Positions 18,193 to 52,321 of a DNA stretch of 64,000 nt are shown piece after piece. A model generated the notes under the pieces. It saw only the letters and a program-made list of their open reading frames with translations, was not told where the DNA came from and did not search any database. Source of the stretch: a virus. The translations under genes were made by a program, and so were the position numbers. The stretch lies in the UHGV virus genome UHGV-1370141, one strand, 5' to 3'. Numbering within the stretch: position 1 is the first letter of the stretch; each line of letters begins with the position of its first letter.

Positions 18193-18207
18193 TTAGCGCT
18201 CCAATAA

Positions 18208-19360: not shown

Positions 19361-19373
19361 AAAGTAAAAGCTA

Positions 19374-19410: not shown

Positions 19411-19414
19411 CACG

Positions 19415-23131: not shown

Positions 23132-23803
23132 CTATCTAAGAAAGTTTTTAGCGAAATAGGGATCGATGTGAAACGCTTTCACGAGAGAATCATAGCCGGA
23201 GTGAATCTGATCGGAGTTGAGCAGGAAACGGTCTAGATCGTGAGGCAATATCCAGGCGTCACCTTGTTTGAAAATAGTGTGACCTACAGTTTCTGGAGAA
23301 AATCGAATTTCTTCCGGGAAGGGATACGTTTGCTTCAAATCGAGGTCGGTGGGTTTTAAGGTAACTAAACGAACGGGTCGTTTACTGGCCACCTCCTTAA
23401 CGAATTGGTTACGATCAAACCAGATAATCTTTTCAGGGTAGCTTTCCAGCTCACTCCAGACCTTGTTAATCACCAGATTAAAGTTCTGTTGCAGTTCCCC
23501 GGATTGGTTAGCGTAACCTAAGCACTCTTCTACCAAAGCTGGATTACCGTAAGTGTTAGTAATAACCTGTGCAATCACACGTTGTGGGAAACAATCTTTC
23601 GGTATATCACAACCTGCATTGTACAATGCAATGATTTCCCACAATGAGCGTAAGGCAAGTTCAAGTGACACTTCCCCGAGTGTATAGTGGTCGTCAGAAT
23701 AGGGGGCTTTAAAGCCCCACTGCTGACGCGCAATTGCTGAAAAGCGTATCTGGATATAACTCGGTGCCATCGATAACGCTTGACTAAAAACAATCAGCAT
23801 CAA
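23132..23803 (-). CDS. Hypothetical protein (223 aa)
   Basis: ORF with 4-nt overlap with the upstream gene. Confidence 0.4.
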   Translation of the reverse strand: MMLIVFSQALSMAPSYIQIRFSAIARQQWGFKAPYSDDHYTLGEVSLELALRSLWEIIALYNAGCDIPKDCFPQRVIAQVITNTYGNPALVEECLGYANQSGELQQNFNLVINKVWSELESYPEKIIWFDRNQFVKEVASKRPVRLVTLKPTDLDLKQTYPFPEEIRFSPETVGHTIFKQGDAWILPHDLDRFLLNSDQIHSGYDSLVKAFHIDPYFAKNFLR

Positions 23804-25311: not shown

Positions 25312-25313
25312 TC

Positions 25314-26048
25314 TTAATCCCTGGTTAACTGATCACGAATCTGTGGTGGAATATACTCACCGGTTTTCAGTTCTTCGTGACAGGCTTTAGCACGTTCGTA
25401 CCCATACTCGCGAGTAATCAGTGCAAGGTGATAAATACGTGCGGTGGTATAAGCTTCTTTCGCGGCATCCCACAAAGCATGGTGTTCAAATGCCGGTTTA
25501 CCCCGCGTCCAGTAAACTTGCTCAACGGTCAAGTCAGGCTCAAAACCAAACGCCAGCGCTAAACGTTCTGCGGTGCGGTCACTGTCTAACGCGCTGAACT
25601 TACGGAATTTACCTGGAGGGACGTCACATTGTGCGAACGCGTTCATGAAAATCGGCGAATCGAAATCCGGACCACGCATGGTGATAACAAAATTGTGTTT
25701 ACCGGTGATTTCGTCTAACCACTTACGCATCGCCCACAGCGCTTCCGGCATAGGAGTTGTACCGCCCCATGCTTCCGTGTAGGCTTCACGAGACGGTGCG
25801 TATTCAGGTTCCCCTTTACCTTCCCACCATCCTACGGTCTGTGGGTCTTCGTGGAACACAGCTTTTGCTTTAGGGTCGTTAGGATCAATACGCATATACG
25901 ACGACCCCACCATTTTTAAAGTCGGTACGTCAAAGGCAACTAAGCCCGTGGTTAACAGATACGCATCAGGACGCAGTGATTTAGTTTCTGCGTCGGCACC
26001 GATTACCAACGTCGGTAAGGTGGGTTGAATCGTTTTCGGGTATGTCAT
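25314..26048 (-). CDS. DEDDh 3'-5' exonuclease (T4 DexA-like)
   Basis: LVIGADAETKS (Exo I D-x-E), GPDFDSPIF (Exo II), HHALWDAAKE (H-x4-D Exo III); overall order resembles T4 DexA from memory. Confidence 0.6.
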   Translation of the reverse strand: MTYPKTIQPTLPTLVIGADAETKSLRPDAYLLTTGLVAFDVPTLKMVGSSYMRIDPNDPKAKAVFHEDPQTVGWWEGKGEPEYAPSREAYTEAWGGTTPMPEALWAMRKWLDEITGKHNFVITMRGPDFDSPIFMNAFAQCDVPPGKFRKFSALDSDRTAERLALAFGFEPDLTVEQVYWTRGKPAFEHHALWDAAKEAYTTARIYHLALITREYGYERAKACHEELKTGEYIPPQIRDQLTRD

Positions 26049-33842: not shown

Positions 33843-34286
33843 TTAGAAAGTTTTGCTGAAATCCACCCATTCTTTATCGTGAGAATAGGTTGCTTTGTAG
33901 CCACGACGAATGAAATACTCTTTCGCTTCTTTGCACTTCGTGTACATCCCAATGGCAATTTCACCGAATGCTTCATCAGCGGCTATCGCTTTGAAGATTT
34001 CTTTCATTACCCCACGCTGACGGTAATCAGGCAGCACGTATAACGAACGAATTTTGAGTACCCCGTTGCGATTACGGTAACTGCAATAACCCACCGCAAC
34101 ATCGTCGATATAAATCAGAACAACACAGTTGCCTTCGATCAGTTGACGCACGTTTAATTTCGGTACAGCGGTTTTGATTTTCAGCATCGTTGCTTGGTGA
34201 TCTAAGTAACGGTAATGAAGTGCGAGTAAATCTTTCGCTTGTTCTTCACCGATTTTAGAAAGTGCGTTCAACAAATAAATTTCCAT
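33843..34286 (-). CDS. GNAT-family N-acetyltransferase
   Basis: Core LYVLPDYRQRGVMKEIFKAI (GNAT motif A R/Q-x-x-G-x-G/A region) preceded by beta-strand VVLIYIDDVAVGYCSY; size typical of GNAT. Confidence 0.55.
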   Translation of the reverse strand: MEIYLLNALSKIGEEQAKDLLALHYRYLDHQATMLKIKTAVPKLNVRQLIEGNCVVLIYIDDVAVGYCSYRNRNGVLKIRSLYVLPDYRQRGVMKEIFKAIAADEAFGEIAIGMYTKCKEAKEYFIRRGYKATYSHDKEWVDFSKTF

Positions 34287-34318
34287 TTATCAGACCTTAC
34301 AGACGCAAAAAGATGAAA

Positions 34319-34447
34319 TTAAAACCAACGTCCAATGATAAAAGCGGCAGCGGCGAGAAGCAGTACGGTAATAAAACCCGCACCCCATGTTAGTTCCGCG
34401 TTATATAAAGCGCCGATTGCAGCATTGGTAGTATTGACAACAGTCAT
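34319..34447 (-). CDS. Small hydrophobic protein (about 42 aa; not in ORF track)
   Basis: Manual translation MTVVNTTNAAIGALYNAELTWGAGFITVLLLAAAAFIIGRWF with GAGGGA SD upstream; coordinates approximate. Confidence 0.3.
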   Translation of the reverse strand: MTVVNTTNAAIGALYNAELTWGAGFITVLLLAAAAFIIGRWF

Positions 34448-34605
34448 AGTTCTTCCCTCGTAAAACACCCTCCCAGTTACCCAGGAGGGGGTTCTAACTT
34501 AACTGTGCGTAGAGCCTTTGAAAGCCCATCCGTACTTATTAATCAGCCAGTTGAGAGATTTCCCAATAATCCACAACGACCCAAGTGTTAACAGAATACC
34601 CTCAA

Positions 34606-34806
34606 TCATGACTTCCCTCCAACACACCGCCACTCACATTCGCGTTGGTGCCAAATTGAACCCCAGGTGAGCCTAATCGCGTACGCTAAGACCACCCATA
34701 AAATCGCCGTTATACAAAATAGCACGTACAGAATGGCAACCAGCACCATGACGCTAAACCCTAAAACGCTTAGTAACTGACGCCACCAATCAGTTTGCGT
34801 AGACAA
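34606..34806 (-). CDS. Small membrane protein (66 aa)
   Basis: Hydrophobic core LLSVLGFSVMVLVAILYVLFCITAILWVVLAYAI; TTG start whose codon overlaps the SbcC-like gene 3' end. Confidence 0.35.
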   Translation of the reverse strand: MSTQTDWWRQLLSVLGFSVMVLVAILYVLFCITAILWVVLAYAIRLTWGSIWHQRECEWRCVGGKS

Positions 34807-37312
34807 TTTTTACTCCTTCGTTGTAAACCGCAGGCAGTGTTACGCCTTCAGGTTCAATAACACAGTATGCGGCTTCGTTAAGTTTTGAATGAATTTCTGC
34901 TTCGTGAGATACCACCAGTAACTGAGAGAACTCACCGGAATTCGCCAGGGTTTTAATAAACCCAACGAGGTTATTTCGGTGTTCTTCATCCATCCCTTCT
35001 GACGGCTCATCCAACAGTAGCGGATACTGATGAAGTTTCAGGGCTTTGTAAGCGGTTAAACGAAACATCAAATTAAAGATGGCTCGCTGCGCTTTCGACC
35101 CTTTCCGCACGTCAGGTACCGGTTCAGGATGGGTTTTTAACTGCACTGGGAACGTGTAGTCTAAGTCACCGTCGGTTAAGTCACACGGCATGACCCGCAT
35201 AGGGTAGGTCCAGACTTGTTCGATATATCGCGTCATCAATTCCGTGATTCTCACGATAGCGTTGTAGAAGTATTTGCGTAGTACCCCTTTCTCGGGCGAG
35301 AACGCTTGAATCATCAGTTTGTTATTGAATTGCTGTGCCTGTAAATCCGATAACTCCTTTTCTAACGCAGTAAGTTGGTTGAGCTCGTTTTCCATCTGAC
35401 GGTACCGTTCCCGTGCTGTGGTGAACGCATCCAACTTGTTTTCTCGGGCGTTTAATAACGTTTCGACCACCGTGTTGGTTAATGTTACCTTAACATCGTT
35501 CTCTAAACGCTCAAAAACCGCATTAAAATTGTCTACAGTGGCTTTAAGTTCGTTTAGATAACAAAAGGTATCATTAGCAACTGCGTGCTCTCTACGGCGC
35601 TCTGAGAGCGTTTCTGTCGCCTTACCCAAACGCTCCTGCTGGAAGGCAATTTTCTGCTGTAGAGCACCATCAACGTTACCTACCGCTGCAACTGCGTTTG
35701 CCCACTCTTTTTCCGCTTTAGCAAAACGGTGTTTCGTTTCGTGGTATTCAATTGCGGAATAAAGTTCACGATCGAACTCTGCACACAAACTGCCAAACTG
35801 ACTGCGGTTATCCGTAAAGACATTCCGCTCCTGGAGACGTTTAAAGAACAAACTCAATACCGGGTCTTTCGAGTATGTTAAAACGATTTCCCGCACTTGG
35901 CGCATGTAATTAACGTCCGACTCTAATTCCGTACGGTCTCGCAACACGGAATCAAGCTGAGTCTGTAACGTATTACGTTGCTCCATTTGTCCACGAATGG
36001 CTTCTTCCAATTCAGGCAAAGAACGACGCACGCCCGGACGGAATTTAAATTGACACTGCGGACAATCAACCTCTGCGGTTTCCAAATAGTGATTCCGTTC
36101 GTGGTTGAGGTTCTGCAATACGTTTTCAACGCGTTGTAGTCGGTCACGCAACCCAGATGAGTTCTGGTCTAAGGTCAACAGTTTCTCTTCCAGTACGTTC
36201 AACCGTTCCGTTGATTTAATAGCATCCAGCGTTGTTCCTAAACGTTGTCCCCAGACACGCGCATCCGTCGCTGCTTTAAGCTGGTCAATGTTAACGGTCT
36301 CCGCAAACAGTTCAGGGAAAAGATGTTCGGTGTCCCACTGCTTTAATAACTCACGCAGTTTTGCAACCGTGTTCTTTAACCCTTCGTGATTCCGCATCAG
36401 GTAATCTTGGCGGGTAGACTCGTCCATCAACAGAGACAAATCTTTGTTTAGCATAGACAGCTCTGTTTCAGCAGAGACCACCGCTTCACGGGCAGTGGCT
36501 TCAACGCGTCGTGCTTCCTCTACCTGTTCTTCCGTAGGTAATCCACCACGGTGTTCCAAGATAGCATTAATCGGTGCTTCGATTTTAAGCAATAGCGATT
36601 GAATCGTTGCCACCGTAACGTCACGATTCAGGCCCGGCAGTTGTTCAATCTGTTTGTTGAGTTCACGTAAATCTGCTTCTAATGCTTTTAACCGTGTTGC
36701 TAACTGCTGACGTTCTTCCTCGTTATCAATCACGCGGGTACGCAACTCTGCAATCTTGCGGCTGGTGATTTCAATACCGCCGTTTAACATCGTCAGGTTT
36801 TTTCGTAAACGTTGATAAAAACCTAACGCGTAAGTTAAGTCTGACGTACTTAAACGGTAGAACCACTTACGACGCAGTTCCGTTCCTGCATCCGTTAAAA
36901 GCACTTCTCCGTTCAGTAACTCTTTAATCTCTTTTGTAATGCCCGTGATTTCTTCTACACGAGAGTTATACACTTTCGCATTACCTTGTTCGACGATTTT
37001 GGTACCCGTCGTCAGGTTCTCGATATCGCAAACCAGTGAGTTGCCTTTACGTGCAACCTTAAATTTGTAACGATGGTCGTTAACCAAACAGATGTTGGTG
37101 TAAGAACCCCCGTCACGGAATTCGGATTTCGAAGGTGCGATAGGTAGAAACACGGACAGTAAGCTGGTCTTACCGCAGCCGTTACCACCGAGGATAATAG
37201 TGGTTGGGGAATGGATAGTAAAATCGAAGGTTTCGATTTCGTGTAGTCCCATCCCGGTAAACCCTTTAAGTACAATACGTTCAACTTTTAACATGTCCAC
37301 CTCCATATTCAC
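34790..37312 (-). CDS. SbcC/Rad50-like SMC-family ATPase with zinc hook
   Basis: N-terminal Walker A IILGGNGCGKTSLL; long coiled-coil middle with CPQC zinc-hook; C-terminal Walker B LLLDEPSEGMD and H-loop VVSHEAE. Confidence 0.8.
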   Translation of the reverse strand: MNMEVDMLKVERIVLKGFTGMGLHEIETFDFTIHSPTTIILGGNGCGKTSLLSVFLPIAPSKSEFRDGGSYTNICLVNDHRYKFKVARKGNSLVCDIENLTTGTKIVEQGNAKVYNSRVEEITGITKEIKELLNGEVLLTDAGTELRRKWFYRLSTSDLTYALGFYQRLRKNLTMLNGGIEITSRKIAELRTRVIDNEEERQQLATRLKALEADLRELNKQIEQLPGLNRDVTVATIQSLLLKIEAPINAILEHRGGLPTEEQVEEARRVEATAREAVVSAETELSMLNKDLSLLMDESTRQDYLMRNHEGLKNTVAKLRELLKQWDTEHLFPELFAETVNIDQLKAATDARVWGQRLGTTLDAIKSTERLNVLEEKLLTLDQNSSGLRDRLQRVENVLQNLNHERNHYLETAEVDCPQCQFKFRPGVRRSLPELEEAIRGQMEQRNTLQTQLDSVLRDRTELESDVNYMRQVREIVLTYSKDPVLSLFFKRLQERNVFTDNRSQFGSLCAEFDRELYSAIEYHETKHRFAKAEKEWANAVAAVGNVDGALQQKIAFQQERLGKATETLSERRREHAVANDTFCYLNELKATVDNFNAVFERLENDVKVTLTNTVVETLLNARENKLDAFTTARERYRQMENELNQLTALEKELSDLQAQQFNNKLMIQAFSPEKGVLRKYFYNAIVRITELMTRYIEQVWTYPMRVMPCDLTDGDLDYTFPVQLKTHPEPVPDVRKGSKAQRAIFNLMFRLTAYKALKLHQYPLLLDEPSEGMDEEHRNNLVGFIKTLANSGEFSQLLVVSHEAEIHSKLNEAAYCVIEPEGVTLPAVYNEGVKIVYAN

Positions 37313-37324
37313 GGAGCGTGGTGT

Positions 37325-37372
37325 AAAAAGAAAAAAAATAAAAGAGAAGGGAGAGAACCCGAAGGTTCTCTC
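37325..37372 (-). terminator. Rho-independent terminator (GAGAGAACC-cgaa-GGTTCTCTC; long U-run on - strand)
   Basis: Perfect 9 bp stem with a roughly 20 nt plus-strand A-run on 5' side, right after the stop of 37379..37987. Confidence 0.55.
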
Positions 37373-37378
37373 GTGGTA

Positions 37379-37987
37379 TTACGGCTGGTAGAGTTTGTAA
37401 CCCATCTCCTGCCAGTTTTGGATATTTTTCGATTGCTCAACCCAAGCCTGGCCTGCGTCGGACGCAACAACTTCCATCGTCAGTAAACAAATCAGATTGG
37501 TAACGGGAACACATTTGCCTGGTGTAACGTCATCCAAATACACCGGATACAGATAAGGTGATTTGATGCTTTGATACGGATAGGAATAATGCGTTCCTAC
37601 AACCCAACCTTCTTCCACCGGGCAGAGGTTAAAGGTACGCGTTTCTGGGATTTCCCCTTCAGAGATCCAATTTACAACGTCGGCCTTAATACGGCCGTTG
37701 TCGATGTAGTAGAACACAACACGTTGCGGGATACCTGCACCCCCGGTAGGGTCTATTGCTTCCAGCGCTTTAAACGGTGTATTATTTAGCGTAGTACGGT
37801 TATCTAACGCGTACATCAGCTTTTCGTAAGCGGTTGGCGTTTTACGTTCGAAATACGCTTTCAAACGCGGGTACGCTAAGAACCCTTCGACTTCTTCCTC
37901 CATTAAATCGATGAATAACGGAGAATGTGGATTAGCTTCGTTTAGTCGCATCGCTTCGATAAAACGAACCAAAGTAATTTCGTTCAT
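37379..37987 (-). CDS. Hypothetical protein (202 aa)
   Basis: ORF directly upstream of the SbcC-like gene; no metallophosphoesterase motifs seen, so not an SbcD/Mre11 homologue by eye. Confidence 0.4.
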   Translation of the reverse strand: MNEITLVRFIEAMRLNEANPHSPLFIDLMEEEVEGFLAYPRLKAYFERKTPTAYEKLMYALDNRTTLNNTPFKALEAIDPTGGAGIPQRVVFYYIDNGRIKADVVNWISEGEIPETRTFNLCPVEEGWVVGTHYSYPYQSIKSPYLYPVYLDDVTPGKCVPVTNLICLLTMEVVASDAGQAWVEQSKNIQNWQEMGYKLYQP

Positions 37988-38004
37988 GTTTCAGTTTCCT
38001 TTGG

Positions 38005-38596: not shown

Positions 38597-38986
38597 TCAG
38601 TAATCTAATTCGATAGCACCTAACATCTCACCGCGTTCTTCGATGACGATAAGATGGCGGTCACGTGATTTGCTTTTCGCAAGCGTTAGTACAACTGTGG
38701 GGTCACACGTTTTGGTCGTTACAGGAAGCACCTCTTTTGCTACAGAGTCGAGTACGAAATAATAACCCGCAGGGCAGGTTGTCCCACCATCTGCTTTTAC
38801 GAGTATATAGCGTCCATCTGCGCCAACTTCTTGGCACTCGCCTGCATCGCCTTCGCAGACTTCAAAACCCGGTGGGTTGTAGTGATAGTCTGTGTTCGTT
38901 GCCGGGGTAAGTAATAAATCGTCGATGTGTGTAGAAGCCATAACTCCGATTGAGAAAAACGCCAACAAAGCGCAGATAAGACGCAT
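38597..38986 (-). CDS. Small secreted protein 1 of 5 (129 aa)
   Basis: N-terminal signal-peptide-like MRLICALLAFFSIGVMAS; several Cys in mature part. Confidence 0.45.
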   Translation of the reverse strand: MRLICALLAFFSIGVMASTHIDDLLLTPATNTDYHYNPPGFEVCEGDAGECQEVGADGRYILVKADGGTTCPAGYYFVLDSVAKEVLPVTTKTCDPTVVLTLAKSKSRDRHLIVIEERGEMLGAIELDY

Positions 38987-38996
38987 GGTTTACTCC

Positions 38997-39407
38997 TTAG
39001 ATTTTAAGTTTGTCCTGTGCTACAACGATTGGTGCTCCAGAGGTGTCGATAACACCTACAGTCGGCACACCATTTTTGATTTTGAAGAACGGTTTGTTTT
39101 CGCCTGAACACAATTGGTTGTCTTTGTATTCGATTTTCTGTGCTTTCCAAGTTTCCAGGTTGAGTACCGACATAGGGCTGTCGTAGCACCAGGCACCACC
39201 TTGCTCAACAACGAAAACATATCTGTTACCTTTGTATTCAAACAAATTCTTTGTCTGGCAATACAGACCGTCAATTTCTGTGCAGTAGAATTCATCGGTA
39301 CTGTTGACGTATTTGATACCCGCCGGTAGCTTTATTGTTTTTGCTGCTACGTTAAGAGAGAACAGAACAGTTACAGCAACGAGTAAAGTTTTGATAAACG
39401 TTTTCAT
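38997..39407 (-). CDS. Small secreted protein 2 of 5 (136 aa)
   Basis: Signal-peptide-like MKTFIKTLLVAVTVLFSLNVAA. Confidence 0.45.
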   Translation of the reverse strand: MKTFIKTLLVAVTVLFSLNVAAKTIKLPAGIKYVNSTDEFYCTEIDGLYCQTKNLFEYKGNRYVFVVEQGGAWCYDSPMSVLNLETWKAQKIEYKDNQLCSGENKPFFKIKNGVPTVGVIDTSGAPIVVAQDKLKI

Positions 39408-39422
39408 GACAGACTCCTTAAA

Positions 39423-39905
39423 TTAATTAACCGTAGCTACGTATTTCTTAACCAGATAGGCGAATTCATTAACGCCGATATCGCCAAACCAAACCAGGTA
39501 ACCTGGGTCGACGTTGTAATAGTAACCTACCACGACATGGGTCTGCGGGTTATAAAGCGTCGTGATGTATTCCCAACCACAAGCATTGCTTTTGCAAGCG
39601 GTAGATTCAAGCCAGATTTTGCCGTTGATTTGCACGGGAATAACATCGCCGCCAGGACCATCCATCACGCCATCTTTACCGAATAACCCGTCTAGTCCGA
39701 CAGGTTTCAACGCTTTATCGATTGCGGCTTTATAAGTCGCATCGTCGGTATAGAGTGTGTTGATATCAGGACATGCACTGGGTTGTTCAGCCCAGGCTTC
39801 CGGGTTACAACTAAGTGCTTGTTTTACACTAGCCGCTTCTGCGTTAAAGGTAAAGCCCGTGAACAGAACCGCCACGAAGAACATCAGGGTATGTAAACGT
39901 TTCAT
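39423..39905 (-). CDS. Small secreted protein 3 of 5 (160 aa)
   Basis: Signal-peptide-like MKRLHTLMFFVAVLFTGFTFNAEA. Confidence 0.45.
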   Translation of the reverse strand: MKRLHTLMFFVAVLFTGFTFNAEAASVKQALSCNPEAWAEQPSACPDINTLYTDDATYKAAIDKALKPVGLDGLFGKDGVMDGPGGDVIPVQINGKIWLESTACKSNACGWEYITTLYNPQTHVVVGYYYNVDPGYLVWFGDIGVNEFAYLVKKYVATVN

Positions 39906-39923
39906 TGTAAATTCTCCATTAAA

Positions 39924-40316
39924 TTATTCAGCGCTACGATTTAAAGTAATACGACCGATCAGTTCTGCATTATGGAAGAAGTCCACAGCAGTATAGTTAC
40001 CGACCTCTAACGGATGAATACTGACTGACATGACTTTTGGTTGTTCGCAGGCGATATCCGTCAGACGTTGGTAGACTTGTGCACGAGTGTCAGCAATGAG
40101 TAATCCGGTACACGATTCACCACGCACTAAACGATAAACTTGCAGTTTACCGAAACTGCGCATTAACGTAGGCGACTCATCCGGGTTGATAATGGGTGAA
40201 TCAGGAGCCGGTTCGTAATGGCGGACGTCCGAATCGCCGAAAGCATAAGTGGCCGTAATACCGACTGCACAGAAAATAATGATGGTATAAAGTATAGTTC
40301 TGATATTCATTTTCAC
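39924..40316 (-). CDS. Small secreted protein 4 of 5 (130 aa)
   Basis: Signal-peptide-like MKMNIRTILYTIIIFCAVGITATYA. Confidence 0.45.
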   Translation of the reverse strand: MKMNIRTILYTIIIFCAVGITATYAFGDSDVRHYEPAPDSPIINPDESPTLMRSFGKLQVYRLVRGESCTGLLIADTRAQVYQRLTDIACEQPKVMSVSIHPLEVGNYTAVDFFHNAELIGRITLNRSAE

Positions 40317-40338
40317 GCACTCTAAAAAAGATTAATAC

Positions 40339-40800
40339 TTATTTGTTAGGACGGGTGTGTCCACAGTTCTGGAAGAAAGTTTCAGACAGACGTTCGCCTT
40401 CTACGGTAAAGTTAGCGGCTTCGTTTCCGTTGATATTCACACTGAAAGTTTTGGCATTGCCGATAGCATTAACGAAAGCCACCCAAGCGAGTTCTGCTTT
40501 GTCACTACCATCCACCGTAGGGATGTTGTAAGTTTTGCCATTTACGACAATATCCAGCGTGTTGTCTTCAGCGTTAGTTGCACCTACAGGTTCCCCGTAA
40601 TACCAAACCATGCGACCGTAAAATTTGCGATTCGCGGTTTCAGTGTCACAGTTGATAGACAGTCCGTTTCCGGTGGTGTCTTCGATTTCGTAAACAGCTT
40701 GACCTGGGTTCTGTAGTTGTTCCCAACTATTGATTGCAGCGTGTGCAGTATTGAATCCGATTGCGAAAAGGCCGATTAAAAAGGAAGTGAAGATTTTCAT
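40339..40800 (-). CDS. Small secreted protein 5 of 5 (153 aa)
   Basis: Signal-peptide-like MKIFTSFLIGLFAIGFNTAHA. Confidence 0.45.
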   Translation of the reverse strand: MKIFTSFLIGLFAIGFNTAHAAINSWEQLQNPGQAVYEIEDTTGNGLSINCDTETANRKFYGRMVWYYGEPVGATNAEDNTLDIVVNGKTYNIPTVDGSDKAELAWVAFVNAIGNAKTFSVNINGNEAANFTVEGERLSETFFQNCGHTRPNK

Positions 40801-40892
40801 TGTTTTGCTCCTCGTGGGGTTAACAAGTAAAAGAGTTAATCTTAACTCTCACCTAAGTAATATATATCTGAGATTATTTTTAATGTTAGATA

Positions 40893-40926
40893 ACAAAAAA
40901 TAAAAGGTGGGGTTTACACCCCACCG
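40893..40926 (-). terminator. Rho-independent terminator (GGTGGGGT-ttac-ACCCCACC; U-run on - strand)
   Basis: Perfect 8 bp stem with plus-strand A-run on 5' side, right after the stop of 40930..41508. Confidence 0.5.
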
Positions 40927-40929
40927 TTG

Positions 40930-41508
40930 TTAAACGTCGAATCGATACTGACGAGAATTGATTAAGAATTCTGTATTCAGTTCAATCCATTCGAGCAGGT
41001 CACCCAGTTGTAAACGACTTGGGTTTTCTAACTCGATAGTGGCAACCGGATAAGAGTTTACTAATTCCGTAATTGCCTCAATACCTTCTTGCGTTCCATC
41101 GTCTTCTAAGGTAATTATAAACGGCATATCGGTACGCTCTGCGTTCGGGTTATACAGACTGACTTTCGTTGCCTGTACAAACGCCGAGTAATCGTCACGC
41201 ATGATTCTAATGTCAGGCGCTAACGTTACCCAGAGGTGTTGTCCCGGTTGGAGTTTACGTTTTGCGTAGTTTAAGAACGGATTAGCCGGTAAGTTTTCCA
41301 AACCACTGCAAATGTTCCGTAAATGAATTCCTCGCGGGTCTTTATAGTCCACAGTGAAAATTCCTACCGGTTCACGGTCTGCCTGTTTTACCAGAAAGGC
41401 CAATACCGTGTCCGCTCTCTCTGGTAAGGAAAGCTCTATTCCCTCAAGCTCCCCGTCGACGAGGTTTTCCAACCAAACGTCTTTTCTCATTTCTATTAAT
41501 CGGTACAC
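40930..41508 (-). CDS. Hypothetical protein (192 aa)
   Basis: ORF in - block. Confidence 0.4.
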   Translation of the reverse strand: MYRLIEMRKDVWLENLVDGELEGIELSLPERADTVLAFLVKQADREPVGIFTVDYKDPRGIHLRNICSGLENLPANPFLNYAKRKLQPGQHLWVTLAPDIRIMRDDYSAFVQATKVSLYNPNAERTDMPFIITLEDDGTQEGIEAITELVNSYPVATIELENPSRLQLGDLLEWIELNTEFLINSRQYRFDV

Positions 41509-41520
41509 GGTACCACCTCT

Positions 41521-42294
41521 TTAGTTATTGAGATTTACATCTGCGATAAACAACAATTGTTTGCCGTGTTGCTGTACTTCTTTCCAACCTAATTTCATAG
41601 CAGTATCAACAACATCAACCATGCTGTAACGGGACATCAAAGATTCTGATTTTGTTCCTGACATTAAGTAAAGTGGCTCATTAGGGCTACGGTCACGTGC
41701 GTCAGGAAGTTCACGTACGACTGCCGAGCCTTCGGGTACGGTAACAAGATGAATCACGGTAAATGGCCTCTTGTGCGTTAAATAGATACGAAATCCAACG
41801 TGTTCAGATTCATGAAAGATTTTCCTCACAACCACATCTTTCAGTGTTGTTTGAACATCAGCCCCAGGCAATATCATGGATTCGCGTGAAACGAAACAAC
41901 GACTATTTTCAATTGTGGAGAAATAATTACGTAGCGGTAAACTGGCGTTATTATCGCGCAGTCTTTTGCTTAAACGGTCGTAATCCATTTCTTTAACTTC
42001 TTCTAACCATGCGTAGGCACGTTCAACGTAGTACAGACCAACAGCGCGATAAGTTAATACTTTGCCTGTGGCCACTTGCCAGAGCTTAACGGTTAGCGTA
42101 TCAGGTTTATATCGCCGATATTCTCCGCGTGTATAAGTGATACGTTGATAAAGACCCACGTCTTCTGTTGGCGCGGATTCGACCGATTGTAATTGCAGCG
42201 TTCGATGAAATCTATCGTCTAGCAACAATGAAGCCAGCGAACCTTTAACCATATACGGTTCAGATTTAAAGAGGTCGTCTAAATGAATTTTCAT
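41521..42294 (-). CDS. Member 1 of a four-gene paralogue family with conserved C-terminal module (GWKEV...GKQLLFIADV)
   Basis: 257-aa ORF; the C-terminal roughly 30 aa is shared with the three neighbouring genes. Confidence 0.5.
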   Translation of the reverse strand: MKIHLDDLFKSEPYMVKGSLASLLLDDRFHRTLQLQSVESAPTEDVGLYQRITYTRGEYRRYKPDTLTVKLWQVATGKVLTYRAVGLYYVERAYAWLEEVKEMDYDRLSKRLRDNNASLPLRNYFSTIENSRCFVSRESMILPGADVQTTLKDVVVRKIFHESEHVGFRIYLTHKRPFTVIHLVTVPEGSAVVRELPDARDRSPNEPLYLMSGTKSESLMSRYSMVDVVDTAMKLGWKEVQQHGKQLLFIADVNLNN

Positions 42295-42361
42295 TTCTAT
42301 TTCCTTCTTAACAAAAGCCGCGACTAAAGCGCGGCAGTTAGAGAAAGTGTATTTTCACTTA

Positions 42362-43513
42362 TTAAAGGTCAGCAACAAACAGCAGCTGATTGCCGTACGG
42401 TTCGACAGATTTCCAACCGTAATCTTTACCGATCGTCGTTAGATGACCGGTATTTAACTTTTTGTCAACCATTCGCAGACGCATCATTAGCGTATTGGAT
42501 TCTGCCGCATCGAGTAATAACGCAGGTTCTTTTTCAGTGCGGTCATCTGCTTTCGGGAAGAAACTGTAATATTGACTTTTGGGCAGATCGATTGACAACG
42601 TATAATTTTTCTTTGTAACGAATAACGCCATCCCTTCGAAATTGCAATCGAAGCGATATTCCCAACCCGCTTCTGCTAAAACGTCCTTTAGCATCTCCAT
42701 GACTTTAAGCTGGTTAACGCTAGGCAGTCGGTAGATTGCAAGACCACTTGGGAAAATGCGTATACCGTCGACGACACTATCGGTGGTTTCGTCAATAAGT
42801 TCAGGATAGCGTTGTGAGAAAATGTGATCGCTCTTGCTTTTCTCTTCGACGTCACGAATGAATTGGGCTAATTCGTCTTTTAAGGCAGACATTTGATTTT
42901 CTCCTTTGTCTTCAATAATCAGGTGGGGTTCGCCGCTAACTAAAATGTGGTAAACAATGTCGTCGGTAGAACGGTAAGTGAGCTTGATAGCTTTATCACT
43001 TAACATTTCGTAGCGGAAGAAGCTTTCGTACCAGCTTGAGCCGAAATCGTTTTGTGTGAGTTCCTGCTCAACTTTGATGGTTTTTGCTTCAAAGCCAATT
43101 AACCCGCTTAATAACGCGAGTTCTGGTTTAGTTAAAATAGCTGCGCCGTGAAAGGACACTTGTTCAAGCTGAAAACATAAATTACTGACTTTACCACTTG
43201 GGAAGACTTTAAACATAATCTTCCGGTTGCTACTCTTTTCTCTAACAACGAGTTTACGGTAATTTAGTCCAGAATTTGTGTAAGCCGTGAACTGGTAACC
43301 TTCAATTTCTTCGTCGTAAGTACAGACATCGACAGGCGCGATAATCTCATCGTATTCACTCAGTACACAGCAGCCCAAGTTATAACCAAACAACTCGCGT
43401 TGTAATGAAGACTCGATGGTTAAGCTTGGCAGTGGCCATGTCCGATTATAGCATCTGTCCATCAGTTCTTTTAGGATCTTGACATGCCCTGGTTTAGAAA
43501 TAATATTTCGCAT
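42362..43513 (-). CDS. Member 2 of the paralogue family (C-terminus GWKSVEPYGNQLLFVADL)
   Basis: 383-aa ORF; shared C-terminal module. Confidence 0.5.
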   Translation of the reverse strand: MRNIISKPGHVKILKELMDRCYNRTWPLPSLTIESSLQRELFGYNLGCCVLSEYDEIIAPVDVCTYDEEIEGYQFTAYTNSGLNYRKLVVREKSSNRKIMFKVFPSGKVSNLCFQLEQVSFHGAAILTKPELALLSGLIGFEAKTIKVEQELTQNDFGSSWYESFFRYEMLSDKAIKLTYRSTDDIVYHILVSGEPHLIIEDKGENQMSALKDELAQFIRDVEEKSKSDHIFSQRYPELIDETTDSVVDGIRIFPSGLAIYRLPSVNQLKVMEMLKDVLAEAGWEYRFDCNFEGMALFVTKKNYTLSIDLPKSQYYSFFPKADDRTEKEPALLLDAAESNTLMMRLRMVDKKLNTGHLTTIGKDYGWKSVEPYGNQLLFVADL

Positions 43514-43541
43514 TTTTACTCTCCTTTAGGGTTTTCGTTAC

Positions 43542-44081
43542 TTAAACATCAAAAGCTAAGAACAACAGTTGCTGACCGAGTTTGCGCACAGTATGCCAGC
43601 CGTGCGCTTTTGCTGTTTCTACTAACGTTTCCCAATCGTCAACGTTACAACCGTCTTTTTTCAGTTTTGTAAGTAGTGTCTCTGCTTCTTTATCTGTCAA
43701 CAATAATCCTGGGTTACTTAACGTAGACGTAAGTGGGTTAGGGAAATATGCGTAGCGTCTTGCGAAAGTAAAGTTCACGAGATAACGTGCTTTCCCCGTG
43801 TCTAGAAGCGTAACAACATCCACGCCGCCGTCGTAGGACGCGCTCGTCACTTTCCATCCTGTACCGGAAAACAGTTGACTGAATAATTTGGTAAAGATAT
43901 CCCCGGAACCGCGATGATAAAGCACAGCATCTTCGTTGATTTTTTCTATTTCAATACCAGTGATCGTTGTACCCGGTTGAATAACGTTAGACAATATACT
44001 GTACGGGCTTTCAAAACGATGTTTACCCACACCCAGGTTAACAAACTTAATAGCTTGTTGTTTCATTTCGATACTAACCAT
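43542..44081 (-). CDS. Member 3 of the paralogue family (C-terminus GWHTVRKLGQQLLFLAFDV)
   Basis: 179-aa ORF; shared C-terminal module. Confidence 0.5.
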   Translation of the reverse strand: MVSIEMKQQAIKFVNLGVGKHRFESPYSILSNVIQPGTTITGIEIEKINEDAVLYHRGSGDIFTKLFSQLFSGTGWKVTSASYDGGVDVVTLLDTGKARYLVNFTFARRYAYFPNPLTSTLSNPGLLLTDKEAETLLTKLKKDGCNVDDWETLVETAKAHGWHTVRKLGQQLLFLAFDV

Positions 44082-44108
44082 GATATTTTCTCCTTTAGGT
44101 TTTTTTAC

Positions 44109-44846
44109 TTACGCGGTTTTAATTAACAGCAGATAGTCCTTCGTAATCTCAGCACAACCCCACCCTCTCATCGCGGCGATTTTACGAAGATCAATTTTCT
44201 CGTGATATTTCAATAAGGGATCGTCCGGGTTAATTTCAACCAGGTGTGTGGCTTTAGAAATCGTTTCCACATCTGGTATTTGTTTTGCTAAGTCCGATGC
44301 AATTAGTTCAATAACGCGGTATCCGTTTAACACAGAAACATAAATGCGTAAACCATATAGCGTGCCCTCGTCTTCTAATGGACAAAGATCGATGCCGGGT
44401 CCAAGCAGTGATAACTCGACGTTATCGGGAAGGTTTTCTGCATTTCGGAGTAACCCTATCCCATTTCTAAACAGAGGGAAGTAAGAGAATAGTGGTGGTA
44501 AAGCCCAACCATTCCCAATAAGCACATCAGCGATACTCGTAGGTGTGTTCGCAAGAAGACGAATGTGGTCAGCCACAACTTCAAGTTCGGCATCACTGAT
44601 CAACTTATAGATTAACATGACACTGGTTTCGGTATTAATAACAAAGAAGACGCGGTTGGCGTAACTGCCTATCACGTATTCGTCAATCATACAGTCGATA
44701 ACGTCACTGTCTGGATAATCTTCAGGTTTAATTGTTCCAGCATCGATTAACTTAGCAGGTTGCGATTGTTTTAATAGTTCTTTAACCACCGTAGAAGAAA
44801 GTTCTAAACTGGTGTTGGTAAAGATATCGTCTAACAATTCTCTCAT
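44109..44846 (-). CDS. Member 4 (divergent) of the paralogue family (C-terminus GWGCAEITKDYLLLIKTA)
   Basis: Start set to internal Met (MRELLDD) preceded by AGGAGA SD; weaker match to the C-terminal module. Confidence 0.45.
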   Translation of the reverse strand: MRELLDDIFTNTSLELSSTVVKELLKQSQPAKLIDAGTIKPEDYPDSDVIDCMIDEYVIGSYANRVFFVINTETSVMLIYKLISDAELEVVADHIRLLANTPTSIADVLIGNGWALPPLFSYFPLFRNGIGLLRNAENLPDNVELSLLGPGIDLCPLEDEGTLYGLRIYVSVLNGYRVIELIASDLAKQIPDVETISKATHLVEINPDDPLLKYHEKIDLRKIAAMRGWGCAEITKDYLLLIKTA

Positions 44847-45231
44847 GGGGTTTATTCTCCTAAAAAGGGATAAGGAAGTCACTACGTTCCTCTGGGAAGA
44901 GTATGTCGGTATACTACGTATACCTCCGCTATTTATATCCGTATACATAATGCCCCCTACCCCCTACCGGTATCCCGAGTAGCAGAATAAAGGGACAATC
45001 TGTAAATTTTAAGTAATACTATGATTACCGTGGTAGATAAGGTGAATAGTGACGGAAGAGTCTCACTACCTCTTCGATACCGTCTTTCTGTTCAGCGAAC
45101 ATGGTAGCCTCCACTATTGTTAGTATCCGTTTCGAAAAGAAACGTGCCCATAGGGGTTGAAGTGCGAGTTCAACCCCTATTCACTTAAGTAAAATATATC
45201 TGAATCTATTTCCGATCTAAGGAACGACCTA

Positions 45232-46197
45232 ATGGAGAAATCCAGCGTTGATTTTTTCTCAATTGGTATCGTCGCGGAAGACAAACCCCGTGGTACAGAT
45301 CGGGTAAAAGTGATACCAATTGAAACCAACTTTGCGAACCCTACCGTTGTACAATCGGTTTCCTCAACCGCTGAAAAGGTACACGATACTGGGGGTGCTA
45401 CTGACAACCTAACGATTAAAACAGGTAACACGATTACCGCAAAGTGGTGGAAGTTTAATTCCAACCGAATTAATTCCCCAGACGTTAAGCGAGAAGATTA
45501 CGTTATCTTGCTACGTCTAGGGCAAACCGATATTTATTTTTGGATTGATCTGAATTTTGCTAACGTTAAGCGATTAGAAGATGCGGTTTACGCGTGGTCT
45601 GCTGACCCTGAAAACCAGATGGCGGATGACTTGTCGAATGCGTATGTGTTAAACGTCTCAACGATTGACAAACACGTTACCCTAAGAACAAGTATGGTGA
45701 ACGGGGAGAAAGCGGCGTGGTTATTCCAATTCGATAACGCTAACGGGTCGTGGCAGTGCGTTGACCATAAAGGGAATAAGTATTACATTAACTCGGTGGA
45801 AGACGATTTAGGTTTTGAGAACGCGATGCTTTCGAAAGTGAACATCAACAAAGAAGATGCATTCATTTACGCAAAACGTTCGATTAACCTGGAAACGAAA
45901 ACGATTAATGAGAAATGCGAAGTTCGGAATACCGAAGCGTCGAAATCGGTTACCTTTAAAACAGAAACCTGGCTAACTGAAGCTTCTGGTTCAACAACGT
46001 ATAAAACGCCGAACTTCAAGCAAGAAGGTAATGAAGCGATGTTCACCGGTAATTTGGAAGTTGCTAAGAACTTCAAATACGGTGGTACGGGCGAAGGCGT
46101 GGGTATCTTTACGGTTAAGGATGCGGTTATTTCCGGTATTACCTTCAGCGTACACATCCATGACGGCGTCCATGGCCCAACTTCAGGCCCACGCTGA
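45232..46197 (+). CDS. Hypothetical protein (321 aa), possibly structural
   Basis: First + strand gene after the divergent intergenic region; T/N/K-rich beta-like composition. Confidence 0.45.
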   Translation: MEKSSVDFFSIGIVAEDKPRGTDRVKVIPIETNFANPTVVQSVSSTAEKVHDTGGATDNLTIKTGNTITAKWWKFNSNRINSPDVKREDYVILLRLGQTDIYFWIDLNFANVKRLEDAVYAWSADPENQMADDLSNAYVLNVSTIDKHVTLRTSMVNGEKAAWLFQFDNANGSWQCVDHKGNKYYINSVEDDLGFENAMLSKVNINKEDAFIYAKRSINLETKTINEKCEVRNTEASKSVTFKTETWLTEASGSTTYKTPNFKQEGNEAMFTGNLEVAKNFKYGGTGEGVGIFTVKDAVISGITFSVHIHDGVHGPTSGPR

Positions 46198-46315
46198 TTT
46201 CCCCTTTTTCTTACGTTGGTATTATATATTGTGACCTGACGTTGGTAAGCTTCTTATCAACACTTTTCTTAAACCTCATCGTTTAGTTAAGCAGGCCACT
46301 TTTTTCGCGCACTCA

Positions 46316-46345
46316 CTCCTCCCTTCGGGGAGGAGCTATCTTATG
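46316..46345 (+). terminator. Terminator-like hairpin (CTCCTCCC-ttcg-GGGAGGAG)
   Basis: Perfect 8 bp GC stem with tetraloop followed by a moderately U-rich tail; downstream of 45232..46197. Confidence 0.4.
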
Positions 46346-46396
46346 CTTTGGTTGTAACACGATACAGTCCTTCCTTTCTTTAACTGGAGAGTAGCT

Positions 46397-46606
46397 ATGG
46401 CTATTAAAGAATTCTCTTCTGCTGAACACATTCCTGAAGAGTTCAAGAAAATTGGTAACGTAAGCGCTTTCGGTGATACCGTAGACGACGTTACTGCTAA
46501 GCTGGCTGTCGAAGCTGAAAAGATCGGCGGTGAAGCGTTTAAAGTTATCGGTATTTCCGGTAACAACAAACTGCACGGTAACGCGATTGTCTACAAAAAA
46601 GACTAA
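46397..46606 (+). CDS. DUF1471 (YdgH/BhsA/McbA)-like small protein without signal peptide
   Basis: FGDTVDDVTAKLAVEAEKIGGEAFKVIGISGNNKLHGNAIVYKK resembles, from memory, the E. coli BhsA/YcfR core (...GAKSFRITSVTGPNTLHGTAVIYK); GGAGAG SD; flanked by hairpins on both sides. Confidence 0.5.
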   Translation: MAIKEFSSAEHIPEEFKKIGNVSAFGDTVDDVTAKLAVEAEKIGGEAFKVIGISGNNKLHGNAIVYKKD

Positions 46607-46608
46607 GT

Positions 46609-46666
46609 GAAAAAAAAACGTGCTACTCCTACCCTCTAAGAGGGTAGGAGGTTACTTATTTTTTTC
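46609..46666. terminator. Bidirectional rho-independent terminator (CTCCTACCCT-ctaag-AGGGTAGGAG; A-run 5', T-run 3')
   Basis: Perfect 10 bp stem between convergent genes ending at 46606 (+) and 46656 (-). Confidence 0.6.
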
Positions 46667-47918: not shown

Positions 47919-47985
47919 AGCTCTTTTCCTCAATAGATTCAAGTCATAGTATGAACTCGACGCCCACGGACTATAGGAGTAGATA

Positions 47986-52311: not shown

Positions 52312-52321
52312 GGAGAATTTT

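What the first reader, a model, noticed from the sequence alone, without database searches (positions are those of the whole stretch)
34319..37312. Zinc-hook SbcC/Rad50-like ATPase without an adjacent Mre11/SbcD nuclease, followed by three tiny hydrophobic ORFs
The 840-aa protein has all Rad50/SbcC hallmarks (N-terminal Walker A GGNGCGKTS, central CPQC hook in a long coiled coil, C-terminal Walker B LLLDEPS and H-loop). Established knowledge: in T4 and T5 and in bacteria Rad50/SbcC is encoded next to its Mre11/SbcD phosphoesterase partner. Here the flanking genes are a 202-aa protein with no phosphoesterase motifs and three very small membrane-like ORFs (66, about 35 and about 42 aa). Either the nuclease partner is elsewhere in the genome, or the host SbcD is used, or this ATPase has a different partner.
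Basis: partly seen in the sequence, partly recalled or inferred. Interest (0 to 1): 0.5.

Follow-up and report, generated by a model that had tools for sequence, protein, structure and literature searches.

The report
Jumbo-phage SbcC, with SbcD encoded elsewhere
This is the ordinary Rad50/SbcC DNA-end-processing ATPase of an SPN3US-like jumbo phage; its Mre11/SbcD nuclease partner is present but lies about 87 kb away, a split arrangement already published for this phage group.

Summary
Window 34790-37294 (-) encodes an 834-aa Rad50/SbcC-type ATPase; the 840-aa reading from GTG 37312 is probably 6 codons too long. It has Walker A, a central CPQC hook at the tip of a long coiled coil, Walker B, D-loop and H-loop. 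Three small hydrophobic ORFs of 66, 36 and 42 aa follow it.

The puzzle has an ordinary answer. The window contains no SbcD. A 93-98% identical, collinear 222-kb element (NZ_CP134650.1) encodes an Mre11/SbcD-type phosphoesterase 87 kb from its SbcC. In the phage collection, SbcC and SbcD homologues are each found in 290 records with nearly the same genus breakdown, and lie 138-149 kb apart in five relatives checked.

Thomas et al. 2016 (PMC5105663) already described this for SPN3US. They reported gp186 as an essential SbcC, gp27 as a distant SbcD, the same split in phiKZ relatives, and a small transmembrane protein just downstream.

The 202-aa neighbour is a clade-restricted orphan fold. It is not a phosphoesterase, and a conserved terminator-like hairpin separates it from SbcC.

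What this work adds is modest. SbcC, ORF A and ORF B overlap or abut in all relatives examined, and ORF B is unannotated in the SPN3US and Asesino records.

Low interest; already known.

The parts
34790..37294 (-). SbcC/Rad50-like ABC ATPase, 834 aa (the ORF is open up to GTG 37312, giving 840 aa). It is the orthologue of SPN3US gp186 and phiKZ gp165.
   Evidence: phrog_77 'SbcC-like subunit' E=2.4e-92. Pfam SMC_N scores 35.1 bits, below the 40-bit cut-off. P. furiosus and C. thermophilum Rad50 are the best PDB sequence hits, E=1e-4. AF2 pLDDT is 82.6. The Foldseek top hit is Rad50 7zr1, E=1.6e-18. tblastn gives 57.7% identity to SPN3US and 69% to Erwinia phage Asesino.
37166..37192 (-). Walker A / P-loop LGGNGCGKT (residues 35-43)
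   Evidence: G36, N38, G39, G41 and K42 are invariant in 20 homologues down to 22% identity. Coordinates verified.
36053..36064 (-). Zinc-hook motif CPQC (residues 411-414) at the apex of the coiled coil
   Evidence: C411, P412 and C414 are invariant in 20 homologues. phiKZ gp165 has CPSC at residue 412. In the AF2 model the motif lies in the turn between helices 365-405 and 426-474.
35084..35101 (-). Divergent ABC signature motif GSKAQR (S-x-x-Q in place of S-G-G-Q/E)
   Evidence: It aligns to the SGGER signature region of P. furiosus Rad50. S733 is invariant and Q736 nearly invariant in the family, while the two glycines are not conserved.
34988..35026 (-). Walker B and D-loop YPLLLDEPSEGMD (residues 757-769)
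   Evidence: L761, D762, E763 and D769 are invariant. Coordinates verified.
34901..34915 (-). H-loop VVSHE (residues 794-798)
   Evidence: S796 and H797 are invariant. The motif aligns to the H-loop of P. furiosus Rad50.
34606..34806 (-). Small ORF A, 66 aa, TTG start, strongly hydrophobic core. It overlaps the SbcC stop by 17 nt and is the positional orthologue of SPN3US gp187 and Asesino gp208.
   Evidence: phrog_16515 E=5.3e-6. Maximum KD19 is 2.93. A small hydrophobic ORF starts within -16 to +4 nt of the SbcC stop in all relatives examined. GAAGGAG lies 6 nt upstream of the start.
34499..34609 (-). Small ORF B, 36 aa, one hydrophobic helix followed by a basic/aromatic tail. Its ATG overlaps the ORF A stop (ATGA).
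   Evidence: phrog_13448 E=1.8e-12. Homologues are present in all 11 relatives, down to 51% SbcC identity, and W13 and W21 are nearly invariant. It is not annotated in the SPN3US or Asesino records. GGAGGG lies upstream of the start.
34319..34447 (-). Small ORF C, 42 aa, with a C-terminal hydrophobic helix ending in RWF
   Evidence: Homologues occur in the 87%-identity relatives (L012, L016) and as SPN3US gp189. It was not found in Asesino or phiEaH2. It has no PHROG hit. Gene callers predict it in public contigs.
34468..34489 (-). Terminator-like hairpin after ORF B (CCCTCCTGGGTAACTGGGAGGG followed by TGTTTT)
37351..37372 (-). Terminator-like hairpin with a CTTCGG loop followed by a T-run, between the 202-aa gene and SbcC
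   Evidence: Found. The equivalent hairpin is present at the same place in 8 relatives.
37304..37329 (-). Motif TTTTTAC-N14-ATATG directly upstream of the SbcC start; a possible phage-RNAP promoter (inferred)
   Evidence: The motif has 4 matches in the window against 0.4 expected. A TTTTTTTAC...WTATG arrangement is seen upstream of SbcC in all relatives.
37379..37987 (-). 202-aa upstream neighbour, a clade-restricted orphan protein (phrog_9964). It is not part of the SbcCD enzyme as far as can be told.

Best explanation
The gene is the SbcC (Rad50) subunit of a phage-encoded SbcCD/Mre11-Rad50 complex in an SPN3US-like jumbo phage, which fits the published description of the proposed genus 'Bapsvirus' (Chimalliviridae). 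Its nuclease subunit SbcD is encoded by the same genome about 87 kb away, outside the 64-kb window.

By inference from the family, two SbcC chains join through the CxxC zinc hook. The ATP-bound heads clamp DNA ends or hairpins, and the SbcD dimer cuts them. This would serve recombination-dependent replication and repair of the phage genome.

SbcC appears to be expressed as its own unit together with two tiny membrane proteins, ORF A and ORF B. A terminator-like hairpin precedes SbcC and another follows ORF B, and the three reading frames overlap.

Shown here: the identity of the fold and motifs, the existence and distant location of SbcD, co-occurrence of the two genes, and conservation of the small ORFs. 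Inferred: complex formation, enzymatic activity, and any functional link to the membrane proteins.
For: SbcC identity:
- phrog_77 E=2.4e-92.
- Invariant Walker A, CPxC, Walker B, D-loop and H-loop in 20 homologues.
- AF2 head/coiled-coil/hook architecture.
- Best structural match is Rad50, E=1.6e-18.

SbcD exists:
- NZ_CP134650.1 is collinear with the window at 93-98% nt identity.
- It carries SbcC at 16946-19450 and an SbcD homologue at 106244-107392.
- That protein is phrog_100 'SbcD-like', E=7.8e-63.
- Its family profile hits T. maritima Mre11/SbcD at E=3.7e-10 over positions 10-308.
- The phosphoesterase motifs DxH, GD, GTPSHD, H and GHxH are conserved.
- Two IMG/VR contigs with an 87%-identical SbcC carry both genes.

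Co-occurrence: SbcC and SbcD each hit 290 phage records, with nearly the same genus breakdown.

Literature:
- SPN3US gp186 (SbcC) is essential. gp27 (SbcD) lies far away, the split is general in phiKZ relatives, and gp187 is a small TM protein (PMC5105663).
- SbcC/SbcD are practically universal in jumbo phages (PMC7824862).
- phiKZ165 is listed as a core gene with a knock-down phenotype (PMC12571901).
Against: - SbcD was shown in a 93-98% identical genome and in relatives, not on the very molecule the window comes from.
- Pfam scores are below the curated cut-offs for both subunits: SMC_N 35.1 against 40 bits, and Metallophos 14.7 against 21.5 bits.
- The ABC signature motif is S-K-A-Q rather than S-G-G-Q/E.
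- No biochemical evidence exists for a complex in any phiKZ-like phage.
Confidence: 0.9

Rival explanations
1. The small membrane proteins ORF A and ORF B (and perhaps ORF C) are functional partners of SbcC. They would tether or regulate the phage SbcCD complex at a membrane, as Miller et al. proposed for T4 gp47.1, which Thomas et al. 2016 compared with SPN3US gp187.
For: - The start of ORF A overlaps or abuts the SbcC stop in all 11 relatives.
- The start of ORF B overlaps the ORF A stop (ATGA) in most of them.
- Both ORFs belong to PHROG families.
- Terminator-like hairpins bracket SbcC-A-B as one unit.
- The T4 gp47.1 analogy is cited in PMC5105663.
Against: - phiKZ gp165 has no such downstream ORFs on the same strand, so the link is confined to one clade and may only reflect inherited gene order.
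- ORF A sequences diverge almost beyond recognition between subclades.
- The region is an indel hot spot of small membrane genes.
- No interaction data exist.
Confidence: 0.2
2. The small hydrophobic ORFs are unrelated membrane proteins, for example for lysis control, superinfection exclusion or envelope remodelling. They would merely share a transcript with SbcC.
For: - Relatives carry a variable cluster of 3-6 small membrane ORFs between SbcC and the GNAT gene.
- A signal-anchored SLT transglycosylase gene lies 2 kb downstream.
- Small-ORF clusters of this kind are common in large phage genomes (general knowledge).
Against: - Coupling of ORF A and ORF B to SbcC is conserved across genera.
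- No holin or spanin family hit was found in PHROGs or Pfam.
Confidence: 0.5
3. The ATPase works without a phage Mre11, either with the host SbcD or with the 202-aa neighbour as a new partner. These are the reader's second and third alternatives.
For: Only the lack of an adjacent nuclease gene.
Against: - A dedicated phage SbcD co-occurs with SbcC across the family.
- The 202-aa protein has no nuclease or phosphoesterase fold and no structural neighbour in the PDB.
- It is restricted to a subclade and is absent next to phiKZ gp165.
- A conserved terminator-like hairpin separates it from SbcC.
Confidence: 0.03

Closest known systems
Salmonella phage SPN3US gp186 (SbcC) / gp27 (SbcD) / gp187 (Thomas et al. 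2016, PMC5105663)
   Same: - It is the orthologue: 57.7% aa identity over the full length.
- The neighbours are the same: a ~205-aa protein upstream, small TM ORFs downstream, then a GNAT acetyltransferase.
- SbcD is encoded far away in both, at 21 kb against 169 kb in SPN3US.
   Different: - The window phage lacks two of the small ORFs found in SPN3US: a 2-TM protein of about 82 aa and a protein of about 92 aa.
- Its 5' leader is about 25 nt shorter.
- Essentiality was shown only for SPN3US.
Pseudomonas phage phiKZ gp165 ('SbcC-like nuclease', Chimalliviridae core gene)
   Same: The length is similar (830 aa), the hook is in the same position (CPSC at 412), and the head motifs match. Its SbcD homologue is also encoded elsewhere.
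   Different: The neighbours differ. A baseplate gene lies upstream on the other strand, and there are no same-strand small TM ORFs downstream.
T4 gp46/gp47 and T5 D13/D12 (phage Rad50/Mre11)
   Same: The enzyme type and presumed role in recombination-dependent replication are the same. T4 also has small ORFs (46.1, 46.2, 47.1) in the locus, and gp47.1 is a small TM protein (PMC5105663).
   Different: - In T4 the two genes are clustered; here they are about 87 kb apart.
- The coiled coil here is about 300 residues longer than in gp46.
- Thomas et al. report no BLASTP-detectable similarity between the T4 and SPN3US proteins.
E. coli SbcCD, and archaeal and eukaryotic Mre11-Rad50
   Same: - Split ABC head, antiparallel coiled coil and CxxC zinc hook.
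- The partner is a calcineurin-like phosphoesterase.
- Structural and profile matches.
   Different: - No sbcDC operon.
- The signature motif is S-K-A-Q instead of S-G-G-Q/E.
- The Q-loop position appears to carry Asn (N128-G-E).
- Sequence identity is only about 10-13%.

Membership tests
Rad50/SbcC (zinc-hook SMC-like ABC ATPase) | Split ABC ATPase head: N-terminal Walker A; C-terminal signature motif, Walker B, D-loop and H-loop | tested here: met
   All are present. All but the two signature glycines are conserved in 20 homologues. The signature motif is the divergent S-K-A-Q. The region aligns to the P. furiosus Rad50 C-lobe.
Rad50/SbcC (zinc-hook SMC-like ABC ATPase) | Long antiparallel intramolecular coiled coil between the two head halves | tested here: met
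   The AF2 model shows helical arms at 138-405 and 426-694, with pLDDT mostly 70-90.
Rad50/SbcC (zinc-hook SMC-like ABC ATPase) | CxxC hook at the coiled-coil apex, instead of an SMC hinge domain | tested here: met
   CPQC at 411-414. C, P and C are invariant in 20 homologues and phiKZ gp165 has CPSC. There is no hinge domain in the model. Zinc binding itself was not tested.
Rad50/SbcC (zinc-hook SMC-like ABC ATPase) | Significant match to curated family models or solved structures | tested here: met
   phrog_77 E=2.4e-92. The Foldseek top hit is Rad50 7zr1, E=1.6e-18. Pfam SMC_N is below its cut-off, 35.1 against 40 bits.
Rad50/SbcC (zinc-hook SMC-like ABC ATPase) | A cognate Mre11/SbcD phosphoesterase encoded by the same genome | tested here: met
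   None is in the window. One is present 87 kb away in the 93-98% identical NZ_CP134650.1. The two genes co-occur in phage records: 290 records each, with nearly the same genus breakdown.
Canonical sbcDC / gene 46-47 type locus | ATPase and nuclease genes adjacent in one operon | tested here: not met
   The genes are 87 kb apart in the near-identical genome. They are 138-149 kb apart in Asesino, Machina, Kwan, pEa_SNUABM_38 and SPN3US. This is the known arrangement for phiKZ/SPN3US-like phages (PMC5105663).
Rad50/SbcC (zinc-hook SMC-like ABC ATPase) | ATP-dependent nuclease activity in complex with Mre11/SbcD | not testable with these tools
   This needs biochemistry. The only available data are genetic essentiality of the SPN3US orthologue and the phiKZ165 knock-down phenotype.
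Mre11/SbcD (the distal partner gene, cluster P0004) | Calcineurin-like phosphoesterase motifs I-V (DxH, GD, GNHD/E, H, GHxH) | tested here: met
   D22/H24, G57-D58, G97-T-P-S-H101-D102, H180 and H212/H214 are invariant or nearly invariant in 35 homologues. Motif III reads GTPSHD.
Mre11/SbcD (the distal partner gene, cluster P0004) | Profile or sequence match to solved Mre11/SbcD | tested here: met
   The family profile hits T. maritima Mre11/SbcD 2q8u at E=3.7e-10 over nearly the full length, and also P. furiosus Mre11 and E. coli SbcD. phrog_100 E=7.8e-63. Pfam Metallophos reaches only E=0.04, below its cut-off.

The most novel reading that the evidence does not exclude
In SPN3US-like Chimalliviridae, the SbcC ATPase forms a conserved, translationally coupled module with two tiny membrane proteins, ORF A (phrog_16515) and ORF B (phrog_13448). 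These would tether or gate the phage Mre11-Rad50 machine at a membrane. That would make it a membrane-anchored variant of SbcCD found in no cellular system and not in phiKZ itself.
Probability: 0.15. Interest if true: 0.5.

Novelty: already known. Interest (0 to 1): 0.12.

Why it matters
It matters little beyond annotation. The apparent orphan Rad50 is one half of a split SbcCD pair that is a core, genetically essential function of phiKZ/SPN3US-like jumbo phages.

Practical value:
- In the RefSeq 'plasmid' record of this element both subunits are named 'hypothetical protein', because Pfam scores fall below the cut-offs. They can now be named.
- The conserved 36-aa ORF B is missing from the SPN3US and Asesino annotations.
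- The conserved SbcC-ORF A-ORF B coupling gives a concrete, testable handle on the old suggestion that phage Mre11-Rad50 is membrane-associated.

Tried and rejected
- **Exact contig look-up.** I tried to place SbcD on the same public contigs that carry the exact SbcC. I used the PLSDB and IMG/VR records instead.
- **Pfam on SbcD and the small ORFs.** This gave only a sub-threshold Metallophos hit and nothing for ORF B or ORF C.
- **RNAalifold on the SbcC 5' leaders of 9 relatives.** I was testing for a conserved hairpin occluding the Shine-Dalgarno. It gave no consensus structure, so the idea was dropped.
- **The 202-aa protein as a nuclease partner.** Considered and rejected, for the reasons above plus the terminator-like hairpin and its absence from the phiKZ locus.
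- **Other SMC-like readings (Lamassu LmuB, Wadjet JetC, MukB, SMC5/6).** These appear in the fold search. I rejected them because the CxxC hook replaces a hinge, Rad50 is the top hit, and a dedicated SbcD co-occurs.
Full report
**What is there**

The minus strand of window 34319-37987 carries five ORFs in order:
- a 202-aa ORF, 37379-37987;
- a long ORF, 34790-37312;
- three small ORFs: 66 aa (34606-34806), 36 aa (34499-34609) and 42 aa (34319-34447).

The long ORF is 840 aa from GTG 37312. Three things point to ATG 37294 and an 834-aa product instead. A GGAGG sits 5 nt upstream of that ATG. All relatives align from that Met. Public gene calls give exactly the 834-aa product, which is listed in 115 blocks of the assembly collection, on contigs up to 239 kb.

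**Identity of the ATPase**

The sequence evidence is as follows:
- It matches phrog_77, 'SbcC-like subunit of palindrome specific endonuclease', at E=2.4e-92.
- Pfam SMC_N scores 35.1 bits, just below the 40-bit cut-off.
- The best sequence matches among solved structures are the Rad50 ATPase lobes, at E=1e-4.

In an alignment of 20 homologues down to 22% identity, the following are invariant (coordinates checked):
- Walker A: G36, N38, G39, G41, K42.
- The hook: C411, P412, C414.
- Walker B: L761, D762, E763.
- D-loop: D769.
- H-loop: S796, H797.

The ABC signature motif is divergent. It reads S733-K-A-Q736, with S733 invariant and Q736 nearly invariant, where Rad50 has S-G-G-E/Q. The position of the Q-loop appears to carry N128-G-E.

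The AlphaFold2 model has mean pLDDT 82.6. It shows a beta-rich N-lobe, an ascending helical arm (138-405), a short hook turn containing CPQC, a descending arm (426-694) and the C-lobe. Its best Foldseek hit in the PDB is Chaetomium Rad50 (7zr1, E=1.6e-18). SMC5/6, condensin, MukB, Lamassu and Wadjet ATPases follow. The hook in place of a hinge, together with Rad50 as top hit, places it in Rad50/SbcC.

**Where the window comes from**

At the nucleotide level nothing in the phage collection is close: the best match is 72% identity over 11% of the query.

At the protein level SbcC is 69% identical to Erwinia phages Asesino, Stratton and phiEaH2 (Erskinevirus), 58% to Salmonella phage SPN3US (Seoulvirus), and 45-53% to the Machina, Huxley, Kwan and Caitlin groups. 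In all, 290 phage records have a homologue, including 81 Pseudomonas phage records. Thomas et al. give ORF165 as the phiKZ homolog.

The window is collinear with NZ_CP134650.1, a 222,441-bp circular 'plasmid' of Enterobacter ludwigii. Identity is 96.1% over bases 1-25000, 97.9% over 34000-38000 and 93.4% over 39001-54986. The SbcC region (34000-36690) also matches a 221,873-bp 'plasmid' of E. coli 98232 at 97.3% identity.

Proteins of this phage occur in many Salmonella, E. coli and Shigella isolate assemblies on contigs of about 222-228 kb. This fits the published description of 'Bapsvirus', a proposed Chimalliviridae genus. That genus was found in bacterial assemblies, has a genome of about 220-249 kb, shows limited identity to Seoulvirus and keeps the same gene order (PMC12768965).

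**The 'missing' nuclease**

The window has no SbcD. tblastn with SPN3US gp27 gave nothing below E=2.8. An HMM built from 35 SbcD-family members gave nothing below E=1.9 against all 421 ORFs of at least 50 aa, while positive controls scored 1e-159.

SPN3US does annotate a 'putative nuclease SbcCD D subunit', gp27, at 21.0-22.2 kb, far from its SbcC at 168.9-171.4 kb. A homologue search with gp27 found a 248-member cluster, P0004, at 66% identity. It comes from the same Salmonella, E. coli and Shigella assemblies.

In NZ_CP134650.1 a 99.5%-identical copy lies at 106,244-107,392 (+), and SbcC lies at 16,946-19,450 (-). The two are 87 kb apart one way round the circle and 132 kb the other. That position maps about 51 kb beyond the window's edge.

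Two IMG/VR contigs with an 87%-identical SbcC carry both genes, about 87 kb and 131 kb apart.

The protein is a genuine Mre11/SbcD homologue:
- It matches phrog_100 'SbcD-like' at E=7.8e-63.
- Its family profile hits T. maritima Mre11/SbcD at E=3.7e-10 over positions 10-308, and also P. furiosus Mre11 and E. coli SbcD.
- The phosphoesterase motifs are invariant or nearly so: D22-x-H24, G57-D58, G-T-P-S-H101-D102, H180 and H212-x-H214.
- Pfam Metallophos reaches only E=0.04. That probably explains why the record calls it a 'hypothetical protein'.

Co-occurrence is tight. SbcC and SbcD queries each hit 290 phage records. The genus counts match for Pseudomonas (81), Erwinia (62), Serratia (21), Aeromonas (19), Klebsiella (16) and Ralstonia (13). 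They differ by one for Salmonella (25 against 24) and Vibrio (22 against 23). In Asesino, Machina, Kwan and pEa_SNUABM_38 the two genes are 138-149 kb apart.

**This is published**

Thomas et al. 2016 (PMC5105663) made all of the following points:
- SPN3US gp186 is the SbcC subunit and is essential, as shown by an amber mutant.
- gp27 is the SbcD subunit.
- The gene just downstream, gp187, encodes a 63-aa protein with a predicted transmembrane domain, which they compared with T4 gp47.1.

Iyer et al. 2021 call the SbcC/SbcD pair 'practically universally conserved' in jumbo phages (PMC7824862). An antisense screen lists phiKZ165, 'SbcC-like nuclease', among core genes, with a mild knock-down phenotype (PMC12571901).

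**The 202-aa neighbour**

- It belongs to phrog_9964, of unknown function.
- It has only 8 representatives among 1.84 billion proteins.
- It folds confidently, with pLDDT 84.8 and pTM 0.81, into an alpha+beta structure.
- In BFVD it matches only its own orthologues in Erwinia jumbo phages.
- A GC-rich CTTCGG-loop hairpin followed by a T-run lies between it and SbcC in the window and in all 8 relatives examined.
- In phiKZ the gene upstream of gp165 is a baseplate gene on the other strand.

It is therefore neither a phosphoesterase nor a conserved companion of SbcC.

**The small ORFs**

All three have a Shine-Dalgarno and a hydrophobic core.

ORF A (phrog_16515, E=5e-6) starts within -16 to +4 nt of the SbcC stop in all 11 relatives examined. 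Its sequence drifts strongly between subclades.

ORF B (phrog_13448, E=1.8e-12) is present in all of them. Its ATG overlaps the ORF A stop (ATGA) in the window, SPN3US, Huxley, ChrisDB, Caitlin and one IMG/VR relative (L015). It overlaps by one base in Asesino. It is not annotated in the SPN3US or Asesino records.

ORF C has homologues in the 87%-identity relatives and as SPN3US gp189, but none was found in Asesino or phiEaH2.

Relatives also carry extra small ORFs here that the window lacks: a 2-TM protein of about 85 aa, a 35-aa protein ending ...TQGWF, and a protein of about 90 aa.

A terminator-like hairpin follows ORF B. SbcC-A-B therefore looks like one coupled unit. Whether that reflects function, a membrane tether as speculated in 2016, or only inherited gene order cannot be decided here. 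phiKZ lacks the arrangement.

**Mechanism**

Established for the family, inferred here: SbcC dimerises through zinc-hook and head contacts, ATP binding clamps DNA ends or hairpins, and the SbcD dimer cleaves them. This would feed recombination-dependent replication and repair of the phage genome.

Shown here: the architecture, the motifs, the existence of the partner, co-occurrence of the two genes, and conserved coupling with two small membrane ORFs.

**Verdict**

The arrangement is the documented norm for phiKZ/SPN3US-like phages. Interest is low.

Noticed in passing
whole window; NZ_CP134650.1, NZ_CP173450.1: The phage appears as a circular ~222-kb 'plasmid' in complete genomes of Enterobacter ludwigii and E. 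coli. Its proteins also occur in many Salmonella, E. coli and Shigella isolate assemblies. This fits the published 'Bapsvirus' and bacterial-assembly-associated phage report, which suggests a carrier-like state (PMC12768965).
   Followed up: partly
window 37304-37372 (-); L001, L002, L012-L019 upstream of SbcC: A conserved CTTCGG-loop terminator hairpin plus T-run is followed by TTTTTTTAC-N14-20-WTATG upstream of SbcC in all relatives. The motif occurs 4 times in the window against 0.4 expected (also at 9884-9909 and 18538-18563 on the minus strand). It may be a phage-RNAP promoter.
   Followed up: partly
L002:10698-10802 (SPN3US); L001:10695-10805 (Asesino): Homologues of the conserved 36-aa ORF B (phrog_13448) are present but not annotated in the SPN3US and Asesino GenBank/RefSeq records.
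   Followed up: yes
window 34319-34500 compared with L001:10738-11418 and L002:10744-11499: The stretch between ORF B and the GNAT acetyltransferase is an indel hot spot of small genes. Relatives carry a ~85-aa 2-TM protein (...RPPLLRDPAYD), a 35-aa ...TQGWF protein and a ~90-aa ...GEDWRGNQ protein. All three are missing from the window.
   Followed up: partly
window 35084-35101 and 36905-36913 (-): The ABC signature motif is S-K-A-Q (family pattern S-x-x-Q) instead of S-G-G-Q/E. The Q-loop position appears to hold a conserved Asn (N128-G-E).
   Followed up: partly
window 38597-40800 (-): There is a run of five small genes (129, 136, 160, 130 and 153 aa), each with an N-terminal signal-peptide-like sequence. 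One is YfjT-like (PF27224). The first ~900 nt of window 39001-64000, i.e. 39001-39912, match Klebsiella and E. coli plasmids at 75-78% nt identity.
   Followed up: no
window 37285-37345 (-) compared with the relatives' leaders: Seoulvirus and Erskinevirus relatives have a conserved element, ACTAATACTTTnTCATTAGAAGG, in the SbcC 5' leader. The window lineage lacks about 25 nt here. RNAalifold found no consensus structure.
   Followed up: partly
NZ_CP134650.1 16946-19450 and 106244-107392; MT679221.1, OQ383623.1: Annotation problems. The PLSDB/RefSeq record of the near-identical element calls both SbcC and SbcD 'hypothetical protein'. Proteus phage 7 and Salmonella phage MET_P1_082_240 label the SbcC homologue 'nuclease SbcCD subunit D'.
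   Followed up: no
window 23800-26048 (-): Two other nucleic-acid enzymes lie about 9 kb downstream of SbcC: a 503-aa RNase H-domain protein and a 244-aa Rv2179c-like exonuclease (precomputed Pfam hits). Neither is a phosphoesterase.
   Followed up: no
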